Assembly: GCF_964213995.1 (NCBI RefSeq)
Contig: NC_135804.1
Location: 68,014,001 to 68,078,000 of the forward strand
Direction of reading: 5' to 3'
Origin: Mustelus asterias
Lineage: Eukaryota
DNA: 64,000 bases
Position 1 is the stretch's first letter. Each line of letters begins with the position of its first letter. Under the pieces are notes generated by a model. That model was not told where the DNA came from and did no database searches. It saw nothing but the letters and a program-made list of their open reading frames with translations. The position numbers and the translations under genes were made by a program. This document shows, piece after piece, positions 1 through 62,699 of the stretch.

Positions 1-167
1 TGAGTGTCGTACCAACAGAGCGTTCTTTAGGAAAATAAAATCTGTCCCAATACATCCGTGCAAAAAGTAAACCTGAAGCTATTACAATCATCTTAATTGA
101 AAAGTTGTCGAGTGGAGTATCCATTTCGCCCTGCTCCTGACGTCGCCATGGATTACGCATTCGATTC

Positions 168-3100
168 ATAGAAACATAGAAAACTACAAAACAGGCCCTT
201 CGGCCCCACAAGTTGTGCCGAAAATATCCCTACGTGTTAGGCCTATCAATAACCCTCCATCCTATTAAGTCCCATGTACTCATCCAGGAGTCTCTTAAAA
301 GACCCTATTGAGTTTGCCTCCACCACCACTGATGGCAACCGATTCCATTCGCCCACCACCCTCTGTGTGAAAAGCTTCCCCCTAACATTTCCCCTGTACC
401 TACCCCCCAGCAACTTAAACCTGTGTCCTCTCGTAGCAGCCATTTCCACCCTGGGAAAATGCCTCTCAGAGCCCACCCGATTTATGACTCTCAACATCCT
501 CTATACCTCTATTAGGTCTCCTCTCATCCTACGTCTCTCCAAGGAGAAAAGACCGACGTCCCTCAGCCTATCTTCATAAGGCATGCCACGCAATCCAGGC
601 AACATCCTTGTAAACTCCTCTGCACCCTTTGAATCTTTTCCACATCCTTCCTGTAATGAGGCGGCCAGAATTGAGCACAGGACTCCAAGTGGGGTCTGAC
701 GGGGGTCTTATATAGCTGCATCATTATCCCCGGACTCCTAAACTCAATCCCTCGATTGATAAAGGCCAGCACATCATACGCCTTCTTAACCACCTCCTCC
801 ACCTGCGGGGCCGATTTTAGAGCCCTATGGAGCCGGACCCCAAGGTCCTTCTGATCCTCTACCGTACTATGAGTCTTTCCCTTAATATTGTACTCCTTCA
901 TCCCACTTGACCTGCCAAAATGGACCACTATGCATTTATCTGGGTTGAAGTCCATCTGCCACTTCTCCGCCCAGTCTTGCATCCTATCTATGTCCCTCTG
1001 TAACTTCTGACATCCCTCCAGACTATCCACAACCCCACCAACCTTGGTGTCATCGGCAAACTTACCAACCCATCCCTCCACTTCCTCATCCAGGTTATTT
1101 ATGAAAATGACAAACAGCAAGTGTCCCAGAACTGATCCCTGGGGCACACCACTGGTGACTGACCTCCATTTAGAAAAAGACCCATCTGTACCCACTCTCT
1201 GCCTCCTCTGGGCAAGCCAGTTCTGGATCCACAGGGCAGCAGCCATTTGGATCCCATGCCCTCTCACTTTTTCTAGAAGCTTTGCATGTGGAACCTTATC
1301 GAACGCATTGCTAAAATCCATATAAACCACATCTACCGCTTTCCCTTCGTCATTGTGTTTAGTCACATTTTCGAAGAACTCCACCAGGCTCGTAAGGCAC
1401 GATCTGCCTTTGACAAAGCCATACTGAGTATTGTTGAGCATACTAAACCTCTCTAAATGCTCATAAATCGTTTCCCTCAGGATCTTCTCCATCAGCTTAC
1501 CAACCACTGAGTTTAGACTCAGCGGTCAGTAATTTCCTGGGCTATCCCTATTCCCCTTCTTGAAAATAGGAACCACATCGTCAATCCTCCAATCCTCCGG
1601 CACCTCTCCCGTCTCCATCGACGACGCAAAGATCATCGCGAGAGGTTCTGCAATCTCTTCCCTCGTCTCCCACAGTAACCTGGGGTACATCCGATCCGTA
1701 CCCTGCGACTTATCTACCCTGATGCCATTCAAAGATTCCAGCACGACCTCTTTGTTAAAGTCCACATACTCAATCTTTTCGGTCCACCGCAAGTCCACAG
1801 TACATCCACCCATGTCCTTCTCCTCTGTGAAAACCGAGGCAAAAAACTCATTGAGCACCTCTGCCATTTCTACTGGTTCTGTACAGATTTTCCCGCCTTC
1901 ACCTTTTATAGGCCCTATTCCCTCACGTCTCATCCTTTTACTTTTCACATATTTATAGAACGCCTTAGGGTTTTCCTTTATTCTACTTGGCAAGGCCTTC
2001 TCGTGACCACTTCTGGTTCTCCTAATTTCCTTCTTCAGTCCCTTCCTACAAGTCGTATACTCATCTAGATTCCTATCTTCGCCAAGCTCTCTGAACCTTT
2101 TGTACTCTTTCCTTTTCTTCTCGACTAAGTCCCGCACACCTTTCGTGCACCACGGTTCCTTTAACCTCCCAACTCCTCCCTGTCTGCTCAGAACATTGTC
2201 CTGTAGAACCCTCGAAAGACATTTCTTGAATAACTGCCACCTCTCTTCATTAGATTTCCCCGAGAATACCTCCTTCCAATTTACTCCTCTAATTTGTTGC
2301 CTTATGTCTTCATATTTCCCCTTACTCCATACAAACACTTTCCTAGCTTGCTTGATCCTCTCTTCTTCCAATGCAATCATAAAGGAGATAGAGTTATGAT
2401 CGCTATCCCCAAGATGCTCTCCCAATGAGAGATATGACACTTGTCCAGGTTCATTGCTCAGTATCAGATCAAGTACAGCCTCTCCTCTTGGAGGCTTGTC
2501 CACATGCTGTGTCAGGAAACCCTCCTGAACACACCTAACGAACTCCTCCCCATCCAATCCCCTTACCCTAGGGATATTCCAATCTATGTTTGGGAAATTA
2601 AAGTCTCCCATCACAACAACTCTGCTATTATTGCACCTCTCCAGGATCTGTTTCCCTATCTGCTCCTCCACCTTCCTGTCACTATTGGGCGGCCTATAGA
2701 AAACTCCCAGCAAAGTGATCGACCCCTTCCCACTCCAAACTTCCACCCAAAGAGACTCTGTAGACAATCCCTCCACAGCATACACCTTCTATACAGCTGT
2801 GACACTATTCCTGATCAGCAGTGCCACTCCACCCACTCTCTTGCCTCCCTCCCTGTCCTTCCTGAAACATCTGAATCCCGGCAACTGTAGTATCCAGTCC
2901 TGTCCCTGAGACATCCAAGTCTCTGTAATGGCCACCACATCACACTTCCAGGCATCGATCCACGCTCTGAGCTCATCCCTTTTATTAACTATACTCCTGG
3001 CATTAATGTAAACACATCTCAATCCTTTGGTCTGAGCTCTCCCCTTCTCTAAGCCCGTCCATCTCCCTCTTGCACCGTCTATAACCCTTCTCTGTTTGCG

Positions 3101-4771
3101 AGCAAACTTCCTCACTCCCAGTCACCTTATCTCGATCCCGTCTCCCCAACTTATCTCGTTTAAACTCTCCACAGTCGCCTTAGCCAACATTCCCGCCAGG
3201 ATATTGGTCCCCCTGGGATTCAAGTGCCACCCATTTTTGTGTACAGGTCACACCTGCCCCTAAAGAGGTCCCAATGATCCAGGAACCTGAACCCCTGCCC
3301 CCTGCACCAGTCACTCAGCCACACATTCATCCTCCACCTCACTCCATTACTGCCCTCACCCTCCCGTGGCACAGGCAGCAATCCTGAGATTACTACCTTT
3401 GCTTTCCTCCTTCTCAGCTGTCTCCCTAATTCCCTATACTCTCTTTTCATGACCCCTTCCCCCTTCCTTCCCACATCAGCGGTACCAATATGTACCGCTA
3501 CCTCTGTCTCCTCTCCCTCCCCACTCAGGATTTCCGGGAGTCAACCAGCGACATCCTGGATCCCGGCCCCAGGGAGGCAGACCACCATCCGAGACTCCCG
3601 CCTGCCTCCGCAAAAACGCGTGTCCGACACCCTTACTGTCGAGTCCCTGATTAACACTGCCTTCCTCCTCTTTTCCTTAGCCCTCTGAGTTCCAGGGCCG
3701 GACTCCACTCCGGAGACACGGCCACTGCTGCTTCCCCCAGGTGGGCTGTCCCCCCAGCAGTACTCAGGCAGGAGTACTTGTTGTGTAGGGGCACATCCAC
3801 CGGGGTGCTCTCAATCACCCGAGCTTTACCCTTCCTGGCCATCACCCACTTGGCCTCCACCCGTGGCCCTGGTGTGACCTCCTGATGATAGCTCCTGTCT
3901 ATCATCTCCTCATTCTCTCTTAACAGCCTAAGAACCTCGAGCTGCAGTTCCAGCTCCTTAACACGGCCCCTCATGAACCGCAGCTCAACACACCCCTCAC
4001 AGCTGTGGATGTCCGGGAGGCCAGGTGCCTCCAGGTCCTCCCACATCCTACACTGATAACAAAACACTGGCCTTACACTCATATTTGCCCCTTTATACCA
4101 AGGTACACAGAGAAAAGTAAATAAGAATGAAAGAACTCACCCCTGCTCGCCCTGTCCCACGAAGCCCTGTGAGCCAAAGCCCTTATAGCTCACACTCTGC
4201 TTCCCACTCACTCCCCTGCCCGCTCCCGACGCTGCCCACTGTTTACTACAGCCGACCTTTTCTACTTCGCGCGCTTAAAAAAACCCTTCCCAGACTCCTT
4301 AGCAGCTCACTTCCGGTTTTCAGTTTAAAAAATAAGAAAAATACTACTGCAAAAATAAAGGCAAAAAAACAACACTAACTGACTAAATAAATCAATAAAT
4401 CTCTCACCAGCACTCCTGCCACAAATCACTCCCTCTCTGCTTCCTCCAGTGGAACAATGAGGGTGATCCTCCCGGTTCACTGACTTTTAAAGTTTAAAAA
4501 AAACCTTCCCAGACTCCTTCGCAGCCCACTTCCGGTTTTCAGTTTAAAATTAAGAAAAATACTACTACAAAAATAAAGGCAAAAAAACCACACTAACTGA
4601 CGAAATAAATAAATCTCTCACCAGCACTCCTGCCACAAATCACTCCATCTCTGCTTGCTCCAGTAGAACAATGAGGGTGATCCTCTCAGGTAATTGACTT
4701 TTAAAGTTAAAAAACCCTTCCCAGACTCCTTCGCAGCCCACTTCCGGTTTTCAGTTTAAAATTAAGAAAAA
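168..4771 (-). mobile_element. Full-length CR1 (L3/HER1-type) LINE, mutated
   Basis: 5'UTR tandem monomers 4275-4771; ORF1 from 4082 (CxxC..CxxC zinc finger, coiled coil, SGNH-esterase VVISGLLPVP); ORF2 APE endonuclease (VAITETW, GDFN, SDH) and RT (GVPQGSVLG, FADD) broken by frameshifts; simple-repeat 3' tail at 168-185. Confidence 0.95.
4275..4771 (-). repeat. About 215-bp tandem monomers (about 2.3 copies) in the CR1 5'UTR
   Basis: Units start at about 4275, 4492 and 4706 (ttaaaaaa..ccttcccagactcctt..cacttccggttttcagtttaaaa). Confidence 0.9.
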
Positions 4772-6285
4772 GTCCCTTCAGATAATATCAACACAGACTG
4801 AGGACAATGGATGCTGCGAATGCTCGGTGTCTGAGAATATTCCAGCAATACTACTGAAAATATGTACTCCAAAACGTGGTTACGCCATAGACAACCCTGT
4901 TTTAGTACAGCTTCAGCAAGGGAATCCACTCAAATGTGCAAAATTGCCCAGGTTTCCTATACGTACAATGAAGGAGGAATCCATCCTGCATATTTGCTCC
5001 CCGTCCGTCTAATCTCCGTCTGAAATGATGAGATGGGTGATCAACTAAGCGTCACGATCTTCACAATATCCTGATCACTGATGGGTTGTTTGCGTTTCTC
5101 CATTGGCACTCAGCTGCTGACGGCATAATGTTGGTTCAAACACGGACCAAAGGGCGTACTCAACGGAGGAGGTAGCAGTCACTCCCTGTTAGCATTTGAT
5201 TGAGTGTACTATGAAGGAGTCCCAGCAAAAGAGGAATCATAGGACACCAATGGAATTAAATTCCCTTTTGTTGAAATCATATCTTGCACAAACGTCAATG
5301 GCACTGCTAGTTGGTGGTCAATCAATTCAGTTCCAGGACATTACCACAAGAGTCCCTCAGCATAGTTCCTAGGAATTGTTAATTTTAGTTTCTTCAGCAG
5401 CGTCATTCATTCTCATGTTATGTGAGAAGTAAGGATTTACTCTAATTGTGCAATTTTTGGTGGCCGTGTTGAATCCTCCGACACTGAAGAGATCACGCCC
5501 AAATATTAAGTATTCACGCCACACAGGTGCTAAGCAATGACGATTGCGAGCAAGGAACCAACTAACTGTCGTGCCTCGACATTCAAAGGCATTATCATTG
5601 AAGACTGCCCCACTACCCACACCCTGGAGGAAATAATTGACCATAACCTGAACTGGATATGTCACATAAATACCTTAGCTGGAAAAGCAGGCCTGAACTT
5701 CGGAATACAGCAGCAAATGACTGGCCCCATGCCTCCCCAAACACTGTCCACCACAATTCGGCATAAATTCGGCGGAATAATTTCCACTTGCCTGGGTGAG
5801 TGCAGCTATCACCACGTTCAGGAAGGTGGACAGGATCCGGGACGAAACAGCCAGTTTGCGTCACGTGAATTTACTCCCGCAACCACTGAAGTACTGTGGC
5901 AGGCATGCGTACCCTTTGAAGGGTGTACTACAGGAACTCAGCACACCTCCTATGTCAGCGCATTCGAAACCTGACTGCTTCCAACGAAAAGTACAGGACA
6001 GCAGATACAGGGGAACACGCCCACATGGTGGTTCCCCTAAAAACCACTCAATACCCGTGCTGCAAGTATATCAGCATTATTTCACTAATCCTGGGTCAAA
6101 ACCCTTGCAGACAGACGCTGCCAGCACGTTGGGTGCACCTTGCGACTCATAGATTGCTCTAGTTCAAGAAAGCAACACATTACCACGTTGTGCAGCACAA
6201 TTGTGGATGGTCGATGAATGCTACCATGTCCAGCATCACATGAATTGGTTAAAATCGAATTATCAGAGTTAATGAGGCCGTGCAA
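4772..6285 (+). mobile_element. Old, decayed CR1/L2-group LINE (second family); continues 1-167 on the other side of the CR1 insertion
   Basis: Degenerate RT text (NIPAILLKIC, IDHNLNWICHINTLA, LSTTIRH); junction gattca/agtcc reads through the insertion. Confidence 0.65.
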
Positions 6286-6993
6286 GAAAATATTTAGAAG
6301 ATCATTCCCAACAGGGAAGTTATAAATATCTGAAGGGCGGGGCGGCAGTAGAAAGGGGTTGAGGTGTTGAGGGTGGGATGTTGTTAAGAGTTCGTTCTTC
6401 CTTTAGAATCGATTAAGACTGTGAAGCGTACAACTGGAAGTATTTGAAATTATGAACTGCGGTGACACGTGAGATGTATTGTAGAGGTTCCAAACGCAGG
6501 GTTTGCGAATCCTTTGGCTGTGCGATCATTAGGAACTGATAGCTTTTTTCGAAAAGATCATATAAAAATATTGAGGACGTGATATTCAATGCCAAGTGAG
6601 CCGGTAAAGATGAAAATCACAAGTGAACTCAATTGGATAGGTGGACATAAGATAAGGAACAATAACTACAGATATGTCCACAGAACGAGATGAATCAAAC
6701 GGAGTATAGTGGGCTTGGGGGGAAGGGAGGGGGGAGGGGTGGAACCGCAAAGGCGCTGCGTACTCAAAACAAAATTTCCTGCCATTATTGAGATGTAATA
6801 TTGATTTTTTTCAATTGGGCATTATTTGTTGGCACTTTGATATGCAAGTACTGTGAATATTTTTATATTTCTAAGTTGCAAAATAATGCAATTGGAAATG
6901 AGATCTGCATACTATTTTAAGGTGCTTGGAAATCATTTGGGTAGTTATTGTTAGTTCACCGTGACACAATTTTAATTGCATCAGAAGAACAAA

Positions 6994-7035
6994 TTACTGT
7001 CTGAACTCATTTTGAATTTGCTTCCAAGATCTGAC
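6994..7035 (-). CDS. Candidate terminal exon (VRSWKQIQNEFRQ*)
   Basis: Strong acceptor tctctgtttccttttcag 105 nt after the previous donor, phase 0 matches, TAA at 6994-6996, ATTAAA about 20 nt downstream. Confidence 0.35.
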   Translation of the reverse strand, partial: VRSWKQIQNEFRQ

Positions 7036-7140
7036 CTGAAAAGGAAACAGAGACTTGCAAAACAATTGGAGGCAAGAAGCTTTTCACACCTACATTTCCC
7101 TTGATATATACCGTATTATCTGACGGCCTTCGGATTTTAC

Positions 7141-7229
7141 CGTTTCAGAATTGTTGGAAGGTGAAACGTCCATGTGCTCTTCTCGGAGCTGCGGCAGAAC
7201 AGCTATTGCCTTTGACTTGACAAAGAAGA
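7141..7229 (-). CDS. Candidate downstream exon (VFFVKSKAIAVLPQLREEHMDVSPSNNSET)
   Basis: Acceptor catcttttcag, donor ACG|gtaaaa, 89 nt open only in the phase-1 frame, compatible with the C1 donor; partly overlaps a repeated sequence. Confidence 0.35.
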
Positions 7230-7539
7230 CTGAAAAGATGGTGACAGTGTAACGTGGATAATTTTAAACATTGTGGCCTCAATGCATCTCTGGTTTCACT
7301 AAGCTTACAGTGTTACCAAAAGAGAAATTAACTGCACCTGTCAATTAAAGTCGAACTGCCAAACAATCAGCGCCCTTTTCTCTGGCTGCTTCAATTATGA
7401 ATTCCATTAAAATTTGGCTTTCGTGCAGCTTTCCGAATGAGTGCAAGGGGAAAAGGTTCGCAAAAAATAATCTTTTTTTAAGGAATACGAAATGAAATCT
7501 GAAGGAACAAAATACGCTTGTAATAGCTCAGTTGAAGAT

Positions 7540-9100
7540 CATAGGAGTGGTCTGAGTCATTGCGGTCATTCAAGTCTATTTGGCCATTCAATAAGACCTT
7601 GGCTGTTCTCATTGTAACATATCCAACATATCAATTCACCCATTTTATTATCAAGGACCTATCTACCTGTGCTCAAGTATACTTGGATAAGTTGTTTCTA
7701 CTGCCTTTAGAGGAAGAATGTTCCAAAGGCTCAGAACATTCTGAGATAAGCATTTGCTTTCTTGACCATCTTAAGTGGACTCCCCATTGCCTTTCAACAG
7801 TAATGCTTTTTCTTGATTCTCCCACGAGGGGAAACATCCTCTCCACATCCATCATGTCGATGCCCCACCGGATCTTATGCATTTCGGTGAAATCTCCTCC
7901 TGCTCTTCTAATCTCCATTGCATGCAATTCTAGCCTCCCCCAACATTCATCATATGACAACCCACCCATCCCAGGTTTAATTCTGGTTAACCTCCTCTGA
8001 ACTGCGTCCAGCGTATTTTGATCTTGTGCTAAGAATGGAGACGAATACTGCACACCGTGCTGAAAAGGTTGTCTCACCAGTGTCCCTGTACAACCGAAGA
8101 ATATTCAATTGTATATTCAATTCCCCTGGCAATAAACTATAACTTCTTGTTAGGTTCCGCAATCACTTGCTTCAACAGCATATTATGCCTTGCGATTGAT
8201 AAATGAGGGCCGACAGATCAATCTGACTCTCCGAACACTGAAATGCCCAACTTTTTGCAGCTTCTTCTTTTTTCACCATTTACTTCCCAATATATCTTTG
8301 TGACATCATCCAGTTTAGCAAAAATGTCTTTGATCCCTTCATGTAAGTCATTCATATACATTCGTGTGTTTCCTCCGGCTGCTCTAGTTTCCTCACACAG
8401 TACAACGTTGTGCAATTTAGGTGGACTCGTCATGCTAAATTCGCCCTTAGTATCCAATGATGTGTTATTTGGGGCGGGCGGTGGGGGGGGGGGGGGGGCG
8501 GGGGGGGGCGTTAATCGGGTAAATACAATAGATTATGGGTATAGGACATGGGAAAGATGCTCTGTCGGGAGCTAGTGCAGGTTCAATGGATCACACAGCC
8601 TCCTCCTCTGCTTTAGGTATTTTATGATTCTATGAAGTTGAGTCCCCTGCACTTATCCCTGTGGTACGCCACTGGTTGCATCATACCAATCACAAAATGA
8701 CCATTATATTCTCATTCAAACTTTCCTGTTATCAAACTACTCCTTTGTCCACAACATCGTAAATTTAGTTATCCACAATGAAATGTGGTATGACAACTTG
8801 GCACGATTCTTGTGGAAATCAAATAAACTACTTTCACATGATGTCCTTCACCCACAGCACACGTTATTCGTTCAAAGTGCTCCAACCCGTTGATTAAACA
8901 CGATTTTCCTCCCCTCGGATCGTGTTGGCTTTGCCTGCTTGACTTTTTTCCCAAGCTCCTTGCCATGGCATCTTTATTAATCCCTTTTAACCTATCCCTA
9001 AGGCAGATATTAAGATAACTGGCATGACGTTTCCTGCTTTCTGTCGTCCTCCCCTCTTCAATACAAGGTGCTTTGTGGAATTTTCTATTCTAATGGAACC
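7540..9100 (-). mobile_element. Decayed CR1 LINE fragments (interrupted by a SINE)
   Basis: ORFs VQRRLTRIKPGMGGLSYDE, GKSCLINGLEHFE. Confidence 0.8.
8360..8635 (+). mobile_element. HE1/V-SINE-type SINE, 5'-truncated, with G-rich tract
   Basis: gtgtttcctccggctgctctagtttcctcacacag central domain; CR1-like tail ending tatgattctatga. Confidence 0.7.
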
Positions 9101-9104
9101 ATGA

Positions 9105-9410
9105 GGGCAGCCTGGTGGCACAGTGTGAAGGACTGCTCCCTCACCGCGCCAGGGCCCTGGGTTTGATTCCCAGCTTGGGTCACTCTCTGCGCGGAGGCTG
9201 CACATTCTACTCGTGTCTGTGTGGGTTAGCTCCGGGTGCTCTGGTTTCCTCCCACAGTTCAAAAGACGTGATGGTTAGCTTCATTGGCCATGTTATATTC
9301 TCCTTCAGTGCAGCCGAACAGGCACCGGAGTATAACGACTGGGCCATTTTCACAGTAACTTCATTGCAGCGTTAATGCAAGCCTATTTGTGACTAAGAGA
9401 TAAACTTCAA
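9105..9410 (+). mobile_element. tRNA-derived V-SINE with alternative 3' tail
   Basis: A box tggcacagtg, B box ggtttgattcc, V-domain, tail cacagtaacttcattgcag...gataaactt. Confidence 0.8.
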
Positions 9411-10149
9411 ATGTATTCTCCGAATCCAGGGATTTTTGGACAGTTAAAACTAATGGAACAGATCCCACAGTTTGCTAAGTTCGAAGTTCCTGCTCGTTGC
9501 AATTTCAAAATTCTGGCGCCAAATAAATTTTTGTTTGGTATTAAATTATTCTCAACACGCATTACACGGTCTTAGACTGGATCTGCATGTGGTACCTTTA
9601 TTTCAATCAGGTAATTCTGCAGTTCTGAAACAAACACTACTTTACATCCTGCCACCCCATCTCCACTTCTCAGTATATGATCGTATCATATTGCTCTTAT
9701 ACCCATGCCCTTTTTGTTTTTAGAACATACTCTATTTACTTTTTGTGTTAGTTAATCCACATTCCAATCAGCTGACAAGTAATTAGTTTCTCTTTACGTA
9801 ATGTGTGAATATATTACCAACTCAATATATATGGCCGCCACATTTGAATTTTCACTCAACAGGAAATAAGTACCCCACCAGTATATTCAAGAATTTCATA
9901 TCTATAAATCATCACGTGGTTCTAATTTTGTTTATCATTCAAAAGAATAAAAATAACTATCTTCTCTGACTCAATAGTTGCAATCCCTCTAAAACTAGTT
10001 TCATTTTTACAAGTGTTCCTATGTGTTGTTTATAACATGCAGAAAGTAACTAGGCACAGTTCTTTAAATATGGCATGCGGTTCTGATCAGGGCCGTTCAC
10101 ATGCATTCTGTGTGCCTATCAAGAACTCTTGGAACTCTGGGTTTTGCAA

Positions 10150-12240
10150 TTGCTTTGATGGCCTTTCAAAAGTGTGTTAGCCAGGGATCAGGGTAAGCAC
10201 ACTCCTCTGAGAGTGAAGGGCAAGGCTAGCAGAAGTAAGGAACCCTGGATGACTGGGGATATTGAAGCCCTGGTCAATAAGAGCGAGGAGGCACATGACA
10301 TGCATAGGCAGCTGGGATCAAGTGAATCTCTTGAAGAGGGTGCAGGAGTAGAGTTAAGAGATAAATCAAGAGGAGAAAAATGGGACAGGAGATTGTTTTG
10401 ACAGATAAGGCAAAGGACAATCCAAAGAGCTTCTACAAATATATAAAGGGCAAAAGAGTAACATGGGAGAGATTAGGGCCTCTTAAGGATCAACAAGGTC
10501 ATTTATGTGCGGATCCACTCGGACAGGTGATCCTAAGTTAATATTTGTCATCAGTATTTGCTGTTGAGAGAAACATGGATGTTAGGGAACTTGGGGAAAT
10601 AAATAGTGATGTCTTGAGGAGTGCACATATTAGAGAGAAAGAGATGCTGGACATCTTAAAGCGCAGCAAGTTCGATAAATCCCCAGGACCTGGTGGAGTG
10701 TATCCCAGGACATTGCGGAAGGCCAGGGAGGAAATTGCGGGTCCCCTAGCAAAGATATTTGAATAATCGATAGCCACAGGAGAGGTGCCTGAAGATTGGA
10801 GGGTGGCAAATGTTGTGACTTTCTTTAAAAAAGGCTGCAGGGAAAAGCCTGGGAACCATAGGCGAAAGAGCCTCACAATTGTGGTGGGTAAAGTTGTTGG
10901 AAGGTATTTTGAGGTCAGGATCTACAGACATTTAGAGATGCAAGGACTGATTAGGAACATCAGCATGGCTTTGTGCGTGGAAAATCATGTCTCACAAATT
11001 TGATTGAGTTTTTTGAAGGGGTAACCAAGATGGTAGATGAGGGCAGTGCAGTTGATGTTGCTTACATGGACTTTGGCAAGGCCTTTGAGAAGGTACCACA
11101 TGGTATGTTGTTGCATAAGGTTAAATCTCACGGGATCCAGGGTGAGGTAGCTAAATTGATAAAAAATTGGCTTGACGGCAGAAGCCAGAGGGTGGTTGTC
11201 GAGGGTTGTTTTTCAAATTGGAGGCCTGTGACCAACAGTGTGCCTCGGGGTTCAGTACTGAGTCCACTGTTAATTGTCATTTATATTAATGGTTTGGATG
11301 AGAATATAGGAAACATGGTTAGTATTTTTGTAGATGACACCAAGATTGCTGGCATGGTGGACAGGGAAGAAGGTTATGTCATACTGCAACGGGATCTTGA
11401 TCAAATGATGAATGACAGATGGAGTTTAATTTAGATAAATGAAGATGATGCATTTTGGAAGGCTGAAACAGGGCAGGACTTACTCAGTTAATGGTAGGGC
11501 GTTGGGGAGAGTTACAGAGCAAAGAGATCTAGGGGTACAGGTTCATAGCTCCCTGAAAGTGGAGTCACAGGTGGACAGAGTGGTGAAGAAGGCATTCAGC
11601 ATGCTTGGTTGCATTGCTCAGAACATTGAATATAGGAATTGGGACATCTTGTTGAAGTTGTACAAGACATTGGTAAGGCCACATTTGGAATACTGTGTAC
11701 AGTTCTGGTCACCCTATTATAGAAAAGATATTATTAAACTAGAAAGAATGCAGAAAGGATTTACTTGGGTGCTACCGGGATTTGATGGTTTGAGTTATAA
11801 GGAGAGGCTGGATAGACTGGGATTGTTTTCTCTGGAGCGTGGAATGCTGAGGGGTGGTATTATAGAGGTCTATGAAATAATGAGGGGCATAGATCAGTGA
11901 AATAGTCAATATCTTTTCCCAAAGTTAGGGGAGTCTAAAACTAGAGGGCATAGGTTTAAGGTAAGAGGGGAGAGATACAAAAAGGTCCAGAGGGACACAC
12001 ATGGAGGCTGGTGAGGGTCTGGAACAAGCAGCCAGATGTAGTAGTAGAGGCAGGTACAATTTTGTCTTTTAAAAAGCATTTGGACAGTCACATGGGTAAG
12101 ATGGGTATAGAGGGATATGGGCCAAATGCAGGCAATTGGGACTAGCTTAGGGCTTAAAAATAAGTGAGTGGCATGGACAAGTTGGACCGAAGGGCCTGTT
12201 TCCATGCTAGAAACCTCTCTGACTCTATGACACTATGACC
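10150..12240 (+). mobile_element. 5'-truncated CR1 LINE
   Basis: RT fragments (KSCLTNLIEFF, FVDD, RPHLEYCVQFWSP); tail gactctatgacactatga. Confidence 0.92.
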
Positions 12241-12795
12241 GATAAGTTAATAAATACTATAGTACAGGTAAACTGCATGTGCAGCCGTTCCTTAACAAAG
12301 TTATTAAATTGTTGTTTATCGAGAGGTTTGTTATGAATTTGTGGATCACTTCAGATCAATCGGTGTTAATTCTGATGTTCATCAAATTACAAAATATTAA
12401 TTATGATGGATTACGTAGTTGTATTCGTGTTATTCGCATCTCTAAAATAAAGTAAAAAATAAGGGTTCAATTCTTATGACATACTTATTTGAAGAAACAT
12501 TACATCGTAAATGGTTATGTCTGGCTTATCAGTAATCACTAAACGTTACAAAGGAACAATTCGTTATCGAGATTACTTTACATTTCGCATACGATGTACC
12601 CTTTGTATCGGCAATTTCCAGCATTCATTGTATTCAATAAGCTTCATTGACCAACAGACATTCTTATATCTATCGCATGCATCCGGCAAGGGAATACCAT
12701 AATTTTAAGACAAGTGCAAAAATTGAGATACCGTTATCCTGCAGCGTTTTGAGGAGCAAATAGCTGCATGAAGTACGACCTTACCCTTCCAGAAT

Positions 12796-12818
12796 TCATA
12801 TCCATGGACATTTTAATC
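12796..12818 (-). CDS. Candidate short exon after C1 encoding GLKCPWI* (secretory-type tail or decayed TM exon)
   Basis: Acceptor ttaaacag about 100 nt after the C1 donor; phase-1 reading stops after 7 codons; donor-like GG|gtaagg at 12785/12784. Confidence 0.3.
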
Positions 12819-12919
12819 CTGTTTAACGTAAACGTTGTTCTTAGGCAGAACATTATTTCTATGCAAAATCAAATAACATTTTGAGTGATCATTAGAAAAT
12901 GCATCCATCGGCATCTTAC

Positions 12920-13231
12920 CTGAGTTAGAACTAGATACCAGGTGAACAGATAATTTCGGTGCTTGGAGCGTCCCATGAGACACCAAACAAATGTAAGGCG
13001 TTCCTATCTGGATTGGCTGTGACACCTGCAGAATGCTGGTGGCTTCATAGAGACCTGATTCGTTCAAGCGCTTTGTTGTTTTTATCCCGGTTGTAATCCT
13101 GCTCCCATTTTTGTACCAGTGAAAGGTAATAGCCGCCGGGTAAAAGTCAACTGTTTCGCACTCAAGATGAAGATAGGTGTTTGAATTTCCGTCAGACATT
13201 TTCCACTGTATCGTTGGTTCATGAGGAGAAG
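12920..13231 (-). CDS. IgSF C1-set domain exon
   Basis: Acceptor ctccaatatag, donor TCAG|gtaaga, 312 nt, phase 1-1, open; LECETVDFYP, HWYKNG, GLYEATSIL, YICLVSH are C1-set hallmarks. Confidence 0.9.
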
Positions 13232-13619
13232 CTATATTGGAGTTCAGGGAGAATTTCTCAGTGTTGAATATTTAGAGGATTATAACAATTTATAACCTAA
13301 TCGCATGCGTATTCTTTAATTATTTTGGAGAAATTTTTATATGATGGAATCTCTGCACTTTTTGAATTACCTAAGAACAGCCATATTTATTCGACTTTTT
13401 AAAAATGTCACAACCATGAGAACCAACATAGATGTTCTCATTCAGTGAATCAACTTCAAATGCATTTCGACTTGTTTAAACATTACGGCCTGAAAAGTAT
13501 CATTGCATAACAATGTCATAAATTAAGTGTTCGTCTGTTTATACTTCTGAGGATTATGTTAGCAATGCTGTTCAAAATATTTGGCGAACTACGCTTCAAT
13601 TACAACAACTTTGCCGCTC

Positions 13620-13820
13620 AGAAAAGGGTGCTGATTGTTTGGCAGTGTGACTTTAATTTGCAGGTGAATTTAAGGGAGACAATTTATCTTTTGGAACATT
13701 GTAAGCTTAGTGAAAGCCCGAGATGCATTGAGGTACGGCCTTTAACATTATCTACGTTACACTATCGCCAACATTTCGAACTGCTCTGTCACGTTAAAGG
13801 CAGTAGCAGTTCTGGCGCAA
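13620..13820 (+). repeat. About 200-bp sequence repeated in inverted orientation at 7190-7383
   Basis: Collinear blocks GAAAAGGG(T/C)GCTGATTGTTTGGCAG, TGTAAGCTTAGTGAAA, GAGATGCATTGAGG, ACGTTACACT, AAAGGCA.TAGC.GTTCTG. Confidence 0.8.
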
Positions 13821-14622
13821 AAAAGCCAACTTGAATTGACTACACCCTGACCTCTCATGCTGAGATCTAATAGAACAGTAATCCTTATGCGTTGAACCAT
13901 CATTCCAGTGAGGTCAATTGTTTAATCCTGGAATATTTCTGGAATCACGCAACCGAATTGATTGTGTTGAAGCACGATGGGTAGTTCATGGCAAATAGAA
14001 AGATCGGACAAGAACGGCCGTTCACGTCATTTCACTTGGGCGTTCTCACATTTGTAGCTTTACGAAGAATCATCCCAAAATTATCCCCATAATGATTTAG
14101 AAAAAGTACCTCGAGTTCCGTGAAATAACACAATGACATACAAGATTATTGTTTTATGAAGGCGTTCACTGGATATTGTGAGTGATTAAATAGCGATTTA
14201 CGATAAACGAGAGAGGCAGGCCTGGGCAATATAGCTCCTCCCAATTAAGTTTTAGTCAGAAAGTTCCTTCCAACTAATTAAGATTGAACCTTAAAATATT
14301 TATGCTCTTTTTATCATGAGGTCACTATCTAAGAAATTTGATACGTTGATAGTAATCGTACTTTTCAAGAGTGGGAGCATCCGAAAATACAGTTTGGAAG
14401 TGTTGGCAGATGTGTGTCTTCATTCGATCTCCTAAGCATTAAGTTTTAGGATTGCCAAAATGTATCAAGTATGATAATATTCTGGATAACGTACATGCAA
14501 AAGAAATATTTGGGGCTATTCAAATTATATCGGCACAACTGGAGTCGAGCCTTATTACACCATAAAACATGCAGCAGTCTACATAATTTGCCGGCTTTTC
14601 AGCGAAGAAAGTAATTTAACTG

Positions 14623-14720
14623 GATATATTGTTAAATTACATATATGTAATATATTATATTCTATATACATACAAGGCATATATATATATCTATATAATT
14701 ATATATGTACATGTATATAT
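14623..14720. repeat. Degenerate (TA)n low-complexity tract in the V-C1 intron
   Basis: Seen directly. Confidence 0.75.
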
Positions 14721-14948
14721 CCCTTGTCATAATTACATTTCGTGCTTTGAAAATATTAGCTGCCGGTTTTGTATGTAGTGATAATTCAGAAATACGTAAT
14801 TGAGGTGACAAAGGGCGAATGATCAAAAATTGCTTCAATAAGGCACAAATCATGCCATCGTGCTACTTTATTTTCCATTTCAAAGGTGTGTATATAAACA
14901 TGTTTGTGAGAGGATTCCAAAAATTCCTTCCGCCGCAATGACACTTAC

Positions 14949-15266
14949 CGTGGACAACAATTGTTGATCCAGTTCCGTTCGTCATTCTCGCTCTTCCTTT
15001 TTGGACGCCGCAGCAATAAACCCCGGCGTCTTGGAAACGGACATTAAGGAGCAGGAAGGAGCCTTGCCCTTTTCTCTTAAAAAAATGTTTCCGCCTGTCT
15101 GAGCTGGGTTGCATAAATACACTTTCGCCAAGTCTCCACCAGAAAATATTCACTTCGGAATTATCTGACGGAGGAGTGAACGCACAAGCAATGGTAATAT
15201 TTTCACCGATCTTAACAATCATGTGTCCGGGGCTTTGCGACACCTGGGACTGGGTATCGGAAATAA
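14949..15266 (-). CDS. IgSF V-set domain exon with germline-encoded J-like G strand (NKp30/antigen-receptor-like VJ domain)
   Basis: Acceptor ttttccctctctttggaag, donor CACG|gtaagt, 318 nt, phase 1-1, open; VSQSP, B-strand Cys (ITIAC), C-strand Trp (IFWW), DAGVYCC, GTGSTIVV. Confidence 0.9.
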
Positions 15267-15396
15267 CTTCCAAAGAGAGGGAAAACACATATTATCAATC
15301 AATTCAACATTTCAGATCTAAATTGCAGTGTTTCATAGTTGAGTTGCAATACATACAAAGACTGTTTTAAAAATAAAAATATAATGCAGCGGATAC

Positions 15397-15451
15397 CTGT
15401 CACGGTCATCATCAGGGTCAGCCTGCTCTGAAGAACAGCGAGAACATTCAT
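15397..15451 (-). CDS. IgSF VJ-C1 gene, leader exon (MNVLAVLQSRLTLMMTVT)
   Basis: ATG at 15451, 18 mostly hydrophobic codons + 1 nt, donor ACAG|gtatcc; phase 1; 130-nt intron to the V exon, the typical leader-V layout. Confidence 0.75.
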
Positions 15452-15889
15452 ATTGGACAAACAATAACGGTCTTCTGCGAATAAAAAAGTATCTGGAGAA
15501 TTTATTGCTTCAACGCCGCAGTTGACCAGTTGTAAAATAGGAAATGACGACGTGTGATGCTGCACGGCTCGACAAATAAATATCTTGAGGTTTTTCTTGG
15601 ACGAACATTGACTGTTCAAAACAACAACAAAAAATCTTTCAGAAGGAGGTGATGCCAATTACCGCAATTAAAATAAGAGAAAATAGTGTAAATTGCAGAA
15701 ATATGACACCTAGCTGCGTCGGTAGATGTTTTGTTTTCCCTTTGCAGGAGCTGCCAGAACGACAACGATTATGCGAGTTGGCTGGCGTTGCAGTAATTAC
15801 CAGACATTTTGGAGTAATTCAATTTTACTGCGTTTGAGATCTGTTTGCTCCACTTAATTCATTTCGTATTTTGCCCGTAGAATAGAACT

Positions 15890-16850
15890 TAAGAACGCAT
15901 TCAGTTAATTCATCTTATCATTGATAGGCAATTTGGATATTGCAGCCTGCTGCGCTATAGAATGAGATCAGTCGGTAATCTGACGGTGGACTTCATTCCA
16001 CTTTCTTAACTGCACAGCGACCCACAATCCTCACCACCCGGGAGCCCTTGACTTCATTTGAAATCAAAAATCAAATTTAGCATTAAATAATTTCAATGAC
16101 CAGTCCTTCTCTGCTCTCCAATGTACATAATTCGAAAGAAAAACGATCCTCTGAGAGAAGAAATCGCCCATCACCTCTGTCTTTAATCAACTTTTCAAAC
16201 CGGTTTTCCTGGTTGAGATTCTTTTAGTAAAGGAAACATTCTGGCAGCAGTCACCCTATGAAGCGACTTTGGAATCTTACGTTATTTCAGTAAGATCAAT
16301 TGATGATGTTCTAAACTCCAGCCACGTTAAAGCTCGCAATGCTCAATCTTTTATGATAATACATCCCGTTCGTAGTTAGAGAACCCTCGGCCCCTAATGC
16401 AACTATATACCTTATCGTTTAGGGTGACCGACACTGCAGGCAGTATCAAGGTCCGGTCTCAATACTGGCCTGTACAGTTGTAGCATAAATGACCTATGTT
16501 TCCACATTATATAGTCCCTTGCAATAAATTGTATTCGTTTGCTGTTTAACCAAATCAACGTTTTGTGACCCATTTGCGAGAGCAGCAAAATTCCTATTTC
16601 CCACGGCACTCTGCAATAACTCTTCAATGTTATCGTATTCTGATATTGTATTTTTCTCTCCGAAGTGGGCAGCCTCAAATGTTCCGACACAATACTCCAT
16701 CTTCCAAATACCTGCCTACTTACTCACTGAAACGATCCATATCCTTTTCCAAATTTTGTGAGCCACTTCACAACATGATCTCCTGCCTATTCATCTCTAT
16801 GTTTAGCAAATTTGGCTCCAGCATGCCAGGCCTCAAAAATCTGTAGGAAT
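15890..16850 (-). mobile_element. Heavily decayed CR1 LINE 3' part
   Basis: MLQLYRPVLRPDLD remnant; CR1-like 3'UTR. Confidence 0.7.
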
Positions 16851-17309
16851 TATTTAAATTACTACTTCCAACTTTTGAAATCACGTTTACTCTGCTTGAT
16901 CAAATTGTGGTTTTCTAAATGTGCTGCAACTACATCCTTCCGAGTGTATTACAGCATTTGTGCCTTGCCCGTTAAAATGCTAACTGAATTTTGGTTTCCG
17001 GTTCTGTGGTATCTTTGTGCTTCCATTGCGTCATATTAATCGCAAAAGCTTCGAGCAGTGAAAAGGTGAAAAGAAAAATCATTTTCCAAATACATTTCAC
17101 TCCAGCTATTTCACTGAACTTTAAAAACGCTGAACCGAGAAAACGCAAAATTGAAATAGGTGTTCAGTGGAAGAGAAAAATCAGTTTCATGGTGGAATTG
17201 ACTCAACATTCAGTTTTAACCGATAGGCCAAAAAGTTATATTTCATTTTATTTAGGTTTCAACGGAAAACTGGTACATATATAATGGTTGATCTCTGACG
17301 CTTGTCATG

Positions 17310-17908
17310 AAGGGATTGAGTTTCGGAGCCAGGAGGTCATGCTGCAACTGTACAAAACTCTGGTGCGGCCGCATTTGGAGTATTGCGTACAGTTCTGGTC
17401 GCCGTATTATAGGAAAGATGTGGAAGTGTTGGAAAGGGTGCAGAGGAGATTGACCAGGATGTTGCCTGGTATGGTGGGAAAATCGTATGAGGAAAGGCTG
17501 AGGGGCTTGAGGTTGTTTTCGTTAGAGAGAAGAAGGTTAAGAGGTGACTTAATAGAGGCATACAAGATGATCAGAGGATTAGAGAGGGTGGATAGTGAGA
17601 GCCTTTTTCCTCAGATGGTGTTGGCTAGCACGAGGGGACATAGCTTTAAATTGAGGGGTGAGAGATATAGGACAGATGTTAGAGGTAGGTTCTTTACTCA
17701 GAGAGTAGTAAGGGCGTGGAATGCCCTGCCTGCAGCAGTGGTGGACTCGTCAACGTTGAGAGCGTTCAAGTGGTTATTGGATAAACATATGGATGATATT
17801 GGAATAGTGTAGATTAGAGGGGCTTTAGATTGGTACCACTGGTCGGCGCAACATCGAGGGCCGAAGGGCGTGTACTGCGCTGTAATGTTCTATGTTCTGT
17901 GTTCTATG
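17310..17908 (+). mobile_element. Young CR1 3' fragment
   Basis: Open ORF2 C-terminus to 17812; (tgttcta)n tail. Confidence 0.93.
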
Positions 17909-18590: not shown

Positions 18591-21351
18591 GGTCGTTAAA
18601 AGGTGAATAATGACCATTTTCCATTCAGTGGAAACATGATAGGCCGACGGCGTAGTCAATGAAATGGTATATGAACTATAAGGAAACAATAATCAATTCC
18701 AGAAACCGTCGATTCGGAGCCAAATAAAATGGAGGAGCTAAGCATATTTCCGGCCGTTTGACGGGAAATAATACCCATACTAATAATTATGCAACAGAAT
18801 AATGGCCATAACACGTTACGTAACTATGGCCAGTGAAATGGTTAAACACAAATATATGTTTATATGTATCCTTTACGCAGTTTACCAACAAGCTTTTTCA
18901 CAAATACAGTCCGTTCAGATAAGAAGGGTGAAAGGCCATTAAGGCAAACATTTTGATGATTTGTGTTTATGTTATCCTTTGAGATCAGAGGGGAAAAAGA
19001 AAGATAAAGAAATATTTGCCCGGGGAAAGGCCATCATGACAGACGTTTGGTTGATTTGGGTTCTGCCATTAAGACACAGCTGGGATGTTTATGGAAAGTT
19101 GAGGCAATGCACAATTGATGCAATCAAAAAGCTCACGCCGAATGGATAATACAGTTAAGCAAGTGTAAGGTGAATGTGATTCATTTTATCATCTGAGTGA
19201 TATCACCTCAAGCAATAACTCTGAGTAGTTAGAGTTAACTCCTACACAGTGATTGCATACGCTAATTACTTGCAATCAAATTTGAAACTATCACTGGTTG
19301 TGCGTTCCTGAATTCGGGACTCTGGCTAGTTACAGACTGTGACTGTGATTTTCGGAGAACCTCGCTATATAGCTCAATTTAAAAAGCTGTTTAAGAGAAC
19401 TCCGTGTTTTGGTCTGGTTACGTGTAGGGTAAAATTGCCATCAATTAAAATGCTAACATCAAAGCCCGCAACAGCATGAATCGTATTACGGGAATCCCTC
19501 ACCTCGTCTTTCCTCTGCCGGGTCTCAGTAAATTTTCATACAATTGAATGTTTTGAATGTTGATACCGAGTAAAATGCAGGGCATGGAATATTGCATTTT
19601 ACATATTACTCCTGCTGTGCTGCACTCAAATGTGCAACACATACGGTCATGTGTGGATAAATTATCTGGAAGGCATGAATTCATATATTTTTTAAATTTT
19701 ATAGCTAGTTCTGAATTAGAATACAGCGGCCAACTAGTCTCCTGCAAAACAAAGCTGTGATTCATATTCTGGATAATTGAGTAGCTTTTGTTGTTTGCAT
19801 GTTTACAAGGAAGTACACGCTGTGAGAGGTATTGCCTTGTTTACTACATCATCCTTAAGTCTGGCCTTGTTCTGCTTTCACGTGGAACGGAATATTACAA
19901 ATGCAGGATGATATGGAATCAGGTAATGCTCGATAAATGATGAGGAATTAATTTCCTCATACTATTCGAACTTTGTGGCATTGTGAAGAAGTACAAGGTA
20001 GGCATCTAAGCCTGAAACGACATCTGGGTCACTGTTATCGTTGGGATGCGTCAGGGCAATACTTCGTAAACATTGCTGTTGGAGCACGACTAGGATTTAT
20101 TAACAAAGAAAGAAAAAGACAAATAGAGACAAGAAAAGTAGAAGAACAAGAGAAGTTGGAAATCGGAGGGAGCTCAGAGGAGAAGAATTAAACGTGAAGC
20201 ATATTACCTTTCACTATATTTTTATACATTCGTGCGAATCAGAGTCGATGGCATTCATTGCTTTTCGACATTTTTTTGAACATGGCCGTGAGCATCATTT
20301 CACAATATCTGCTATCTTGTAGTTTAGGCATACCGACAGAGCTATTAGGGAGTTGCTTGAATTGGAGCGGAATATGTTGGCTCTGCTTTGGGGATGAGCC
20401 AACAGTTCGTTTTCCTCCCACGTGGCAGACGTCACGGGTATGACGCTTTTAAAAGCGACTTCGTGGGTAGCGATGTTGCAAATTGTAGAAAGTGCACACT
20501 GCTGCGCAGCAGTGATACGGCAAATGCAATTTTACCATGAAGGGATGATGCTCTAATCAAATAGCATATTTTTCTTTGGTTGGCACCTTCCAGCTTCAGT
20601 ATTTCTGCAACAACAGTCGTTCAGCTAAATGTGGAGCCATCCATTCCACATGATTTGCAAATGATATACAGTCGATGGGGATTCAAGTGGATATTTAATC
20701 ACATTAGGATCTCATGTCCCTGATCTTTCTTATCGTTTTATTTGGCAAACGTAATTGAAGCTTGTGGTATGCTATGACGGTAACAGTTGCACCTTAATGG
20801 CTGTACTTTGTCACCGAGTGAACAATTCAGCTAACGCAATTGACCTTTCCTCGTAGGTCTGCACAACCTTTATTTCCAGTTAAGAGATTCATACCTCCGT
20901 GAATGCCTAAACTGACCCTGACTCCGGCAAACCTTCAGGCTGTACACTCCTGACCTTAACCATTCGTTACATGGATTATTTTGTTCCTCATGTCATTCCT
21001 GCTTTTCTTACCAATTGCTTTAAGGTTGCCAGTCTCCTACTCGGCCATTTAATGACCAGGAACAATTTCTCCCAAGGCATTCTGTCCAAATAATCATGAT
21101 TTTGAATACACATATCATAACCCCTCTCAGCCTATTTTCTCTGCCAGGAAAAAAACGCCTACTTTCCAAACTATGCCGATGCTCAATGTTCTTCAAAAGT
21201 GAAAACACTGTGGTGAACAAATTACACTTGATGTCTAATCATGGGAGGATGGTCATTGATGATACAATTGAACCGTTTGCCTACAGCACTCTCTCGCTGA
21301 GGAACTTCTGTTGATCGTCCCACAAGTTCAGTATATTGACACCCAATAACG

Positions 21352-46195: not shown

Positions 46196-47074
46196 GCAGG
46201 TTTAAAAGCTGCAAAATCGAACATGAAATGAGCATACTTGTGTTTTTGCCAAGTCCAGAAGGAGGTCTATCTTTGTTGGGTGTTGGTTGAGTTGGACGTC
46301 ATAGTTAGCTTGCTGTTAAAGTTTATACTGTATCATGTTTGATACTTGCAATTTCTAAAAGTTATGCTACTTTTTATCATATTTCAACTATGTTCTTAAA
46401 TAAACTTTGTTTGATTAAAAGCTTCCTCGTGGGTCCGTTGAATTAAACCTGGAGTGAAACACCTTATGCTCCTTTATAAAAAGAGACCTTCGAGTTTCTG
46501 CCCTCCTTTATTAGAGATACACAAACATGTGTCGTTGAGCCAGAATCCTCCAACTCTATAACCGTTATAAATATCAACAATGATATTCTGGCCAGTTTCG
46601 ATCCAACAGTGGCATTTCCTAATCCAATAATAACTGAACATTTTTTTGTCGTTCAAGCGAACCGCCATTTACGTGAATTAACTTCCGTTTTAGAATAACT
46701 ACAGTGCAGATGGAGACCAGTCGACTCATCGCGAGTGCATCGACCCTGTGAATGAACATATTTAGGTAGTTTTCGAAATCTTCCAATAGATACATTAACC
46801 ATCACCACTGGAATAACCATGTGCTAAAACTCAACTTAACATGATTTATTCAGCTAAAGTGAACGCGTCAATTGACAATTCGCCTTTGTCTGAATAGCCA
46901 TCCAGTTTAAGAACTTTATTTTCATTAACATTCCACACTGCCAAGTTTCAAATTTTCGAACACGTTGATGTTCATGATTCACAAAAAGTTGGTATGCAGG
47001 TGCAGCATGTAACAAAAAATACAAATGGGATGTTGGCATTTGTTGCAAAGGAACTGGAGCATAAGAGTTGCAAT

Positions 47075-62520: not shown

Positions 62521-62699
62521 CCGAAGTAGACCAAACAGTCCATCGAACATTCTTCACGATACCAAATGGTCAATATTGGGCTTCAACTCCAAGTTGCTGC
62601 TGCTCCTCATATCCCTTGATTCTCTCAGGGACCGTAAGATTATCCTAATCTGAAATGTAAAGGAACAGATGAAGTTGTGTTACTTTTAAATGGAAATAA

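What the first reader, a model, noticed from the sequence alone, without database searches (positions are those of the whole stretch)
12920..15451. Non-rearranging VJ-C1 immunoglobulin-superfamily gene with antigen-receptor architecture
Seen: three open phase-1 exons with canonical splice sites give leader + V + C1. The V exon already contains the J-like G strand (MTNGTGSTIVVH) and ends in a splice donor; I see no recombination signal sequence (RSS) next to it. Known: C1-set domains are nearly restricted to Ig, TCR, MHC, B2M, tapasin, SIRP and B7-H6, and germline VJ domains occur in NKp30, CD8, SIRP and the Xenopus VJ-C1 genes proposed as relics of the pre-RAG antigen-receptor ancestor. It lacks the WYQQ and FGxG of Ig light chains/TCR, so it is unlikely to be a germline-joined shark IgL. 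Inference: a possibly undescribed cartilaginous-fish immune receptor of the VJ-C1 class.
Basis: partly seen in the sequence, partly recalled or inferred. Interest (0 to 1): 0.8.

Follow-up and report, generated by a model that had tools for sequence, protein, structure and literature searches.

The report
Shark germline VJ-C1 inhibitory receptor family
This is a real, spliced shark gene for a cell-surface protein shaped like one chain of a T-cell receptor but fixed in the germline; it likely acts as an immune brake, and it is one of about 55 clustered copies of an old shark, ray and chimaera family that also has likely accelerator versions and for which I found no published description.

Summary
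Observation confirmed: leader, germline-joined VJ and C1 exons lie at the stated coordinates, all phase 1, with no RSS. The gene continues outside the window with transmembrane and two cytoplasmic exons; six exons give RefSeq XP_078066426.1 exactly (335 aa, ITIM + ITSM tail). One 1,295-nt contig of a public run joins leader, V, C1, TM and the first tail exon, so it is spliced. It is not a lone relic: 55 V-C1 pairs sit on this chromosome, relatives occur in sharks, rays and chimaera, and some have a short tail with a transmembrane Arg (likely activating). In trees the family is one clade; placing this gene with SIRP, B7-H6-like or light-chain rows is rejected, but the family's sister group is unresolved. 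One cluster abuts NUDT21-AMFR-BBS2, off the MHC contig, which weakens the proto-MHC-relic idea. Best reading: inhibitory member of a SIRP-like paired-receptor family of cartilaginous fish; ligand and cell type untested. Ten literature searches found no description, but key papers (PRARP, Xenopus VJC1, shark NCR3) were not held. This scan already noted the family 185 kb away (e1-9367946); new here are splicing evidence, flanking genes and tree tests.

The parts
15452..15511 (-). 5' untranslated part of exon 1 seen in the spliced contig
   Evidence: record 23 of run X4 covers 15397-15511
15397..15451 (-). Leader exon, coding part (18 aa + 1 nt, phase 1)
14949..15266 (-). Germline-joined VJ exon; compact V domain (Cys46-Cys104), J-like NGTG G strand, phase-1 donor, no RSS
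12920..13231 (-). C1-set exon (Cys149-Cys206), phase 1
1..12919 (-). Part of intron 3 (16.3 kb, retroelement-rich). Beyond the window's start: TM exon G000:C4:68010648-68010538, tail exon 1 68010153-68010116, tail exon 2 with ITIM (LAYAAL), ITSM (TEYAAV) and stop 67994284-67994111
   Evidence: six exons translate exactly to P0001

Best explanation
This is an intact, spliced gene for a type I membrane protein (leader, germline-joined VJ, C1, transmembrane helix, tail with ITIM and ITSM motifs) that likely acts as an inhibitory leukocyte receptor within a clustered paired-receptor family of cartilaginous fish. Inferred mechanism: the compact V domain binds a cell-surface ligand, the C1 domain is a spacer, the two tail tyrosines are phosphorylated and recruit SHP-1/SHP-2-type phosphatases (as established for SIRPalpha and PD-1; recalled), damping the cell. 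Sister genes with a short tail and an Arg at the outer edge of the transmembrane helix would signal through an FcRgamma/CD3zeta-type adaptor. The family expanded by tandem and segmental duplication with frequent pseudogenes; this particular gene is a conserved lineage with orthologues across sharks. Shown: gene structure, splicing, motifs, copy number, clade, flanking genes. Inferred: inhibition, adaptor pairing, leukocyte expression, ligand.
For: Six GT-AG exons give P0001 exactly. One contig joins L-V-C1-TM-tail exon 1. ITIM-like and ITSM motifs are kept in 6 of 8 orthologues aligned (46-67% identity; the other two are a partial and a differently ended model). 61 of 61 V matches and the best 56 of 141 C1 matches lie on C4, forming 55 V-C1 pairs: 28 at 58.8-60.0 Mb, 26 at 67.7-70.0 Mb, 1 at 54.7 Mb. 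Of 105 database family proteins, 79 have a TM: 40 with ITIM/ITSM, 8 with the Arg...Asp-His short-tail signature (4 of the 8 are one catshark cluster), 31 other; two such TM exons are in this cluster (C4:68.203 and 67.633 Mb). Two zeta-family adaptor genes exist in the genome. Family is one clade: V+C 98/96, V 97/98, C1 95/98. Language-model features of a chimaera member are nearest to SIRPalpha clusters (0.97).
Against: No function, ligand, cell type or tissue was tested. The TM-Arg/adaptor rule is recalled from mammalian receptors. 31 of 79 members fit neither class (many are short or truncated models). The deep position is unresolved: family+SIRP, family+B7-H6-like and family+IgL as sister groups are all not rejected (p-AU 0.31, 0.32, 0.27). 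This V has Cys103 where orthologues have Tyr, a possible sign of drift.
Confidence: 0.72

Rival explanations
1. The family is the cartilaginous-fish branch of the SIRP lineage (one C1 instead of two, moved to another chromosome), and this gene is a SIRPalpha counterpart, possibly reading CD47.
For: VJ + C1 + two-tyrosine inhibitory tail; nearest Atlas clusters are SIRPalpha; many RefSeq auto-names are SIRPalpha-like; in one C1 tree the family's weak sister (77/79) holds the first SIRP C1; family+SIRP not rejected; coelacanth SIRP found no strong match elsewhere in this genome (best 43.8 bits).
Against: The gene with its three orthologues cannot be grouped with SIRP rows (p-AU 0.0002); SIRP V groups with the NKp30-like V of contig C8, not with this family (95/90); V inter-cysteine span 54-60 against 60-66 in SIRP rows; SEP-domain genes (NSFL1C, recalled SIRP neighbour) are on C7 and C20, not C4; activating members have an outer Arg, not the mid-TM Lys recalled for SIRPbeta.
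Confidence: 0.15
2. It is the shark orthologue group of PRARP or of the tetrapod VJC1 genes, a remnant of the antigen-receptor precursor that may pair as a two-chain receptor.
For: Same V-C1 layout; a lizard V-C1-TM protein (P0145, Rhineura XP_061453713.1) is sister to the family in the V+C tree (98/93) and inside it in one C1 tree (100/99).
Against: The lizard link is a long branch and moves to SIRP with other sampling (17% of bootstrap trees keep it) and is absent in the V tree. PRARP and NKp30 are cited as VJ genes in the MHC (PMC10751288); this cluster is off the MHC contig. No F/W-G-x-G. Unchecked scan notes place PRARP-like clusters elsewhere in this genome. No PRARP or VJC1 reference sequence was available.
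Confidence: 0.1
3. It is a germline-joined light chain, a B7-H6-like ligand or a pseudogene.
For: RefSeq names: Ig lambda-like, NCR3LG1-like, CD276, tapasin-like; Foldseek lists Fab light chains first; its closest paralogue is frameshifted.
Against: TM and ITIM/ITSM tail, open frame and spliced contig; grouping with IgL rows p-AU 0.028, with B7-H6-like rows 2e-5; light-chain-type and B7-H6-like C1 exons of this genome lie on C8, C13 and C9 and group with their own kinds.
Confidence: 0.03

Closest known systems
SIRP family (SIRPalpha/beta/gamma)
   Same: Joined VJ domain, C1-set, inhibitory tyrosine tail, clustered inhibitory and activating members; nearest by language-model features.
   Different: One C1, shorter V, separate clade, other locus (BBS2/AMFR/NUDT21), about 55 copies, outer TM Arg in short-tailed members.
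PRARP and tetrapod VJC1 genes (Fu 2019, Ohta 2019; seen only as citations and passages in PMC10751288)
   Same: Non-rearranging VJ-C1 layout; ITIM/ITSM tail in PRARP (recalled).
   Different: Off the MHC contig; non-canonical J motif; large chondrichthyan expansion; sequence relation untested.
NKp30 / shark NCR3
   Same: Single-exon VJ with GxG G strand; TM Arg in activating forms (recalled for NKp30).
   Different: Has a C1 domain; NKp30-like V exons of this genome lie on C8 and fall outside the family.
UrIg / UrIg2 (PMC12227049)
   Same: Non-rearranging elasmobranch VJ-C1 gene.
   Different: UrIg2 is V-C1-C2-C3 (PDB 9dmx) and linked to the IgH/TCR complex, UrIg to the MHC; this gene has one C1, a TM and an inhibitory tail.
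PD-1 / CD28 family (PMC11599192)
   Same: ITIM followed by ITSM; GxG in the G strand.
   Different: CD28-family members have a single V and no C1.
NITRs of ray-finned fish
   Same: Clustered VJ receptors with inhibitory and activating forms (PMC9652883).
   Different: Second domain is I-type, not C1; gar/bowfin clusters are flanked by runx1/donson.

Membership tests
Ig light chain (rearranging or germline-joined) | WYQQ and FGxG motifs; RSS or germline join; no TM/ITIM tail | tested here: not met
   FWWRLG and NGTG; TM + ITIM/ITSM tail; no RSS
Ig light chain (rearranging or germline-joined) | Groups with light chains in a tree | tested here: not met
   p-AU 0.028 (two IgL rows); this genome's light-chain-type C exons group with IgL, not the family
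SIRP | Joined VJ plus C1-set domain and tyrosine inhibitory tail | tested here: met
SIRP | V-C1-C1 ectodomain | tested here: not met
   one C1 then TM in the spliced contig and the model
SIRP | Nests with SIRPs in a tree | tested here: not met
   gene + 3 orthologues with 7 SIRP rows p-AU 0.0002; whole family as sister of SIRP not rejected, p 0.31
SIRP | Locus beside NSFL1C (recalled) | tested here: not met
   SEP-domain genes on C7 and C20 only, 4 matches
SIRP | Binds CD47 | not testable with these tools
   needs a binding assay
B7-H6 (NCR3LG1) | Groups with B7-H6-like V-C1 proteins | tested here: not met
   p-AU 2e-5; B7-H6-like C1 exons at C9:109.3 Mb group with those rows; row labels by my inspection
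NCR3 / NKp30 | Single V ectodomain, MHC-linked | tested here: not met
   C1 present; MHC class II-type C1 and NKp30-like V on C8, this gene on C4
PRARP / tetrapod VJC1 | Non-rearranging VJ-C1 layout | tested here: met
PRARP / tetrapod VJC1 | Location in the MHC or an MHC paralogon | tested here: not met
   neighbours BBS2, AMFR, NUDT21; human 16q13 position recalled; MHC on C8
PRARP / tetrapod VJC1 | Sequence orthology | tested here: inconclusive
   no named reference available; lizard P0145 link unstable
UrIg / UrIg2 | V-C1-C2-C3 without inhibitory tail; MHC or AgRC linkage | tested here: not met
CD28 family / PD-1 | IgV-TM-tail with no C domain | tested here: not met
   definition in PMC11599192; C1 exon is spliced in
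NITR | V + I-type domain; runx1/donson flank in holosteans | tested here: not met
   C1-set; flanks differ
Paired inhibitory/activating IgSF receptor cluster (general kind) | Clustered related ectodomains with ITIM tails and with charged-TM short tails | tested here: met
Paired inhibitory/activating IgSF receptor cluster (general kind) | Opposite signalling in leukocytes | not testable with these tools
   needs cell assays and tissue RNA

The most novel reading that the evidence does not exclude
Cartilaginous fish keep an undescribed, more than 400-million-year-old germline repertoire of about 55 antigen-receptor-shaped VJ-C1 receptors with a compact, CDR2-less V domain, serving as their main NK/myeloid self-recognition system (their counterpart of KIR, Ly49 and NITR) and representing a separate branch of the VJ-C1 ancestor, outside the MHC paralogons, from which SIRPs may also derive.
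Probability: 0.3. Interest if true: 0.82.

Novelty: new variant of a known kind. Interest (0 to 1): 0.58.

Why it matters
Single-exon VJ genes are sought as clues to the origin of antibodies and T-cell receptors (PMC12227049), and the origin of SIRPs is stated to be unknown (PMC9652883). A VJ-C1 family of about 55 genes in one shark, with lineages shared by sharks and chimaera, adds a large branch to that picture, lies off the MHC, and gives concrete candidates for the inhibitory and activating NK/myeloid receptors of cartilaginous fish. It also shows that many RefSeq 'Ig lambda-like', 'SIRPalpha-like', 'tapasin-like' and 'NCR3LG1-like' shark models are one mislabelled family.

Tried and rejected
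PDB sequence searches with V, C1 and a V profile gave only weak generic Ig hits. Fold searches confirm V + C1 but do not discriminate: VIA-align rows tie at Z 13.6-15.6, Foldseek lists Fab light chains. RNA search: no RNA holder listed; the spliced contig came from a run of unrecorded kind. Complex prediction (homodimer of the ectodomain) was not available, so whether the chains pair is open. CD47 family search rang nowhere, which shows nothing. The V tree held three C1 domains by my mistake; one search drops them, one long-branch row and two redundant rows (63 to 57 rows). The lizard protein as a tetrapod orthologue was considered and left open. A strict regular expression for the Arg...DH helix found 0 of 52,419 ORFs; the two genomic examples come from the TM profile. 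An OSGIN1-like exon left of cluster B (my recall) had no Pfam or useful PDB match; no single-copy gene was confirmed beside cluster B, the cluster that holds this gene. RSS-like sites near family V ends: 2 of 25, about 86 nt into the intron on the other strand in two near-copies, against 84 of 3,000 random windows: rejected as chance. V is not more diverged than C1 among orthologues (52-71% vs 61-69%). Literature: ten searches returned no description of this family; one search returned only unrelated uses of the acronym. Ohta 2019, Fu 2019, Flajnik 2023, Flajnik 2012 and two DOIs recalled for shark NCR3 papers were not held.

Full report
OBSERVATION. The gene is on the minus strand. Leader 15451-15397, V 15266-14949 and C1 13231-12920 are open, end in phase 1 and have GT-AG introns. 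Pfam gives V-set (E 5.7e-8) and C1-set (E 7.3e-12). The V exon includes the J-like G strand and a donor directly behind it; a relaxed RSS scan of 12000-17000 on both strands printed nothing. The rest of the window showed retroelement frames in the part of the six-frame listing that I saw, and family profiles found no other member in it.

THE WHOLE GENE. The V exon matches 100% a 335-aa RefSeq model, XP_078066426.1, auto-named 'immunoglobulin lambda-1 light chain-like' of Mustelus asterias, on a contig of the same length as C4. Its TM exon and two tail exons lie 3.4 to 19.9 kb beyond the window's start; six GT-AG exons translate exactly to this protein. The tail holds LAYAAL (ITIM) and TEYAAV (ITSM). 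No RNA holder was listed, but of four runs laid, X4 (kind not on record) has one 1,295-nt contig, depth 3.1, with joints at 15266/15397 and 13231/14949, no mismatch, and a loose end that is the TM exon; the same contig joins TM to tail exon 1. X1 and X2 cover the introns and show no joints. The AlphaFold model (mean pLDDT 80.4) has two confident Ig domains, a TM helix and a disordered tail; no strand is assigned between residues 64 and 77, so the V lacks C'/C''. The inter-cysteine span is 54-60 (median 59, 83 family V domains) against 60-74 in 30 of 31 outgroup rows that could be measured. The best single-domain fold matches include IgNAR V (Z 14.9, rmsd 2.0, 97 aligned) and CD79b (Z 14.4, rmsd 1.7, 92 aligned), tied with many others.

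THE FAMILY. In the own genome all 61 V matches and 57 of 141 C1 matches (the best 56 without a break) lie on C4. They form 55 V-C1 pairs, 28 at 58.8-60.0 Mb, 26 at 67.7-70.0 Mb (this gene's cluster, itself partly duplicated) and one at 54.7 Mb; these are lower bounds and include pseudogenes. In 1.06 Mb examined in detail, 24 of 25 full V exons have a phase-1 GT at the J end and RSS-like sites are at chance level. The nearest paralogue (C4:69.39 Mb) is frameshifted in V and in the last exon. Eight probable orthologues at 46-67% identity come from seven other shark genera; six of them keep both tail motifs. A profile search gave 23 hits: 20 at E 1.1e-56 or better, all sharks or rays, then a drop to 2.2e-11. 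Names looked up for 23 proteins add rays and Callorhinchus; every family member named is a cartilaginous fish, but most of the roughly 100 family hits were not looked up. Three chimaera proteins fall at three places in the tree, so several lineages predate the shark-chimaera split (about 400 million years; recalled). Of 105 family proteins, 79 have a TM: 40 with ITIM/ITSM, 8 with an outer Arg and a terminal Asp-His (four are one catshark cluster), 31 other. Two Arg-type TM exons lie in this cluster, one followed by a stop within seven codons of the Asp-His. That such an Arg pairs with FcRgamma/CD3zeta is recalled from mammalian receptors; two zeta-family genes are present.

RELATIONSHIPS. The family is one clade in the V+C tree (33 of 55 rows, 98/96), the corrected V tree (26 of 57, 97/98) and the last C1 tree (19 of 51, 95/98); in the C1 tree a long-branched lizard protein sat inside it. 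Forcing this gene and three orthologues together with SIRP, light-chain or B7-H6-like rows is rejected (p-AU 0.0002, 0.028, 2e-5). The sister group is open: SIRP, B7-H6-like and IgL are each not rejected (0.31, 0.32, 0.27). Limits: domains are short, outgroups were drawn from hits to the query, most outgroup labels are my inspection (coelacanth and lungfish SIRP-like, lizard and turtle rows are named by sources), and no TCR, tapasin, CD79, CD8, PRARP or Xenopus VJC1 reference was included. The Atlas puts a chimaera member nearest to SIRPalpha clusters (0.97).

POSITION. Directly left of the 58.8-Mb cluster are NUDT21, AMFR (gp78) and BBS2 exons; C4 also carries GPI and five classical cadherins at 0.3-26.6 Mb. 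These are human 16q and 19q13.11 genes (recalled), not a classical MHC paralogon. An MHC class II-type C1 and NKp30-like V exons are on C8, B7-H6-like exons on C9, SEP-domain genes on C7 and C20. No single-copy neighbour was confirmed for the 67.7-70.0 Mb cluster, 8 Mb from the other.

MECHANISM. Shown: structure, splicing, motifs, copy number, clade, one flank. Inferred: ligand binding by the V, phosphatase recruitment by ITIM and ITSM, opposite signalling by Arg-type members, leukocyte expression. Pairing as a two-chain receptor is untested; the FR2 and FGxG residues of V-V interfaces (recalled) are missing, which makes Fab-like pairing less likely.

LITERATURE SEEN. PMC12227049: passages and first part of the reference list. 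PMC10751288: passages; it names NKp30 and PRARP as VJ genes in the MHC. PMC11599192: first sixth and passages; it lists CD79, NITR, SIRP, CD8, NKp30 and PRARP as joined-VJ genes. PMC9652883, PMC13262535, PMC8455134, PMC8236899, PMC6795676 and bioRxiv 10.1101/2021.06.11.448072: passages. PMC3964593: term search in its one supplementary file, no SIRP, NKp30 or ITIM mention. Fu 2019, Ohta 2019 and Flajnik 2023: titles in reference lists only; further details are recalled. Ten searches found no description; the library lacks most subscription papers, so 'undescribed' is provisional.

EARLIER NOTES. This scan had already described the same family from two genes 185 kb away (e1-9367946); I reached the family reading before that look-up and tested it here. 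Notes on PRARP-like clusters on other contigs were not checked.

VERDICT. Real, spliced, likely inhibitory member of a large chondrichthyan VJ-C1 paired-receptor family; works like SIRPalpha or PD-1, is not a member of SIRP, IgL, B7-H6, NCR3, UrIg or NITR by the features tested; PRARP/VJC1 kinship is open. New variant of a known kind; interest 0.58.

Noticed in passing
G000:C4:69350000-69388300 (L051-L054): Near-identical duplicate of this gene (C1 99% identical) with frameshifts in the V exon and in the ITIM/ITSM exon; part of a segmental duplication of about 67.94-68.7 Mb at 69.29-70.02 Mb.
   Followed up: partly
window 14949-15266, residue Cys103: Extra cysteine before the second canonical Cys (YCC); orthologues have Tyr and 68% of 84 family V domains do. 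It could form an inter-chain bond or be drift.
   Followed up: no
P0145 (Rhineura floridana XP_061453713.1): Lizard V-C1-TM protein with a very short tail; best non-chondrichthyan match to both family profiles' V, unstable in trees. Candidate tetrapod VJC1/PRARP gene.
   Followed up: partly
P0156; G000:C16:64.41-64.43 Mb (L065, L068): Another Mustelus V-C1-C1-TM model, auto-named Ig kappa-like, that groups with multi-C1 Ig-like proteins (98/98) and not with this family; C1 exons at C17:70.77 Mb and C8:1.85 Mb fall near it.
   Followed up: partly
G000:C8:7.52-7.54 Mb (L071, L073): NKp30-like VJ exons (top PDB hits NKp30 and SIRPbeta1) that group with SIRP V domains (95/90).
   Followed up: partly
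P0095, P0096, P0105, P0118: Family models with V joined directly to the TM, no C1: possible exon-skipping forms that would look like NKp30 or PD-1.
   Followed up: no
G000:C4:60.04-60.16 Mb (L209-L220): Right flank of the 58.8-60.0 Mb cluster holds a GST-like gene and a helix-hairpin-helix gene that I recall as EEPD1-like.
   Followed up: partly
G000:C4:67467725-67467946 (L165:3725-3946): Exon left of the 67.7 Mb cluster that resembles OSGIN1 by my recall; no Pfam or useful PDB match.
   Followed up: partly
window 249-4136, 10541-12232, 17285-17809, 21340-22443, 46898-48394, 51534-52583, 62638-63345: CR1/LINE-type reverse-transcriptase and endonuclease frames, the first nearly full length but broken (family name recalled).
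   Followed up: no
G000:C4:70.12 Mb (L192): PNMA (gag-like) domain and protease-like frame of an LTR element beyond the cluster's right end.
   Followed up: no
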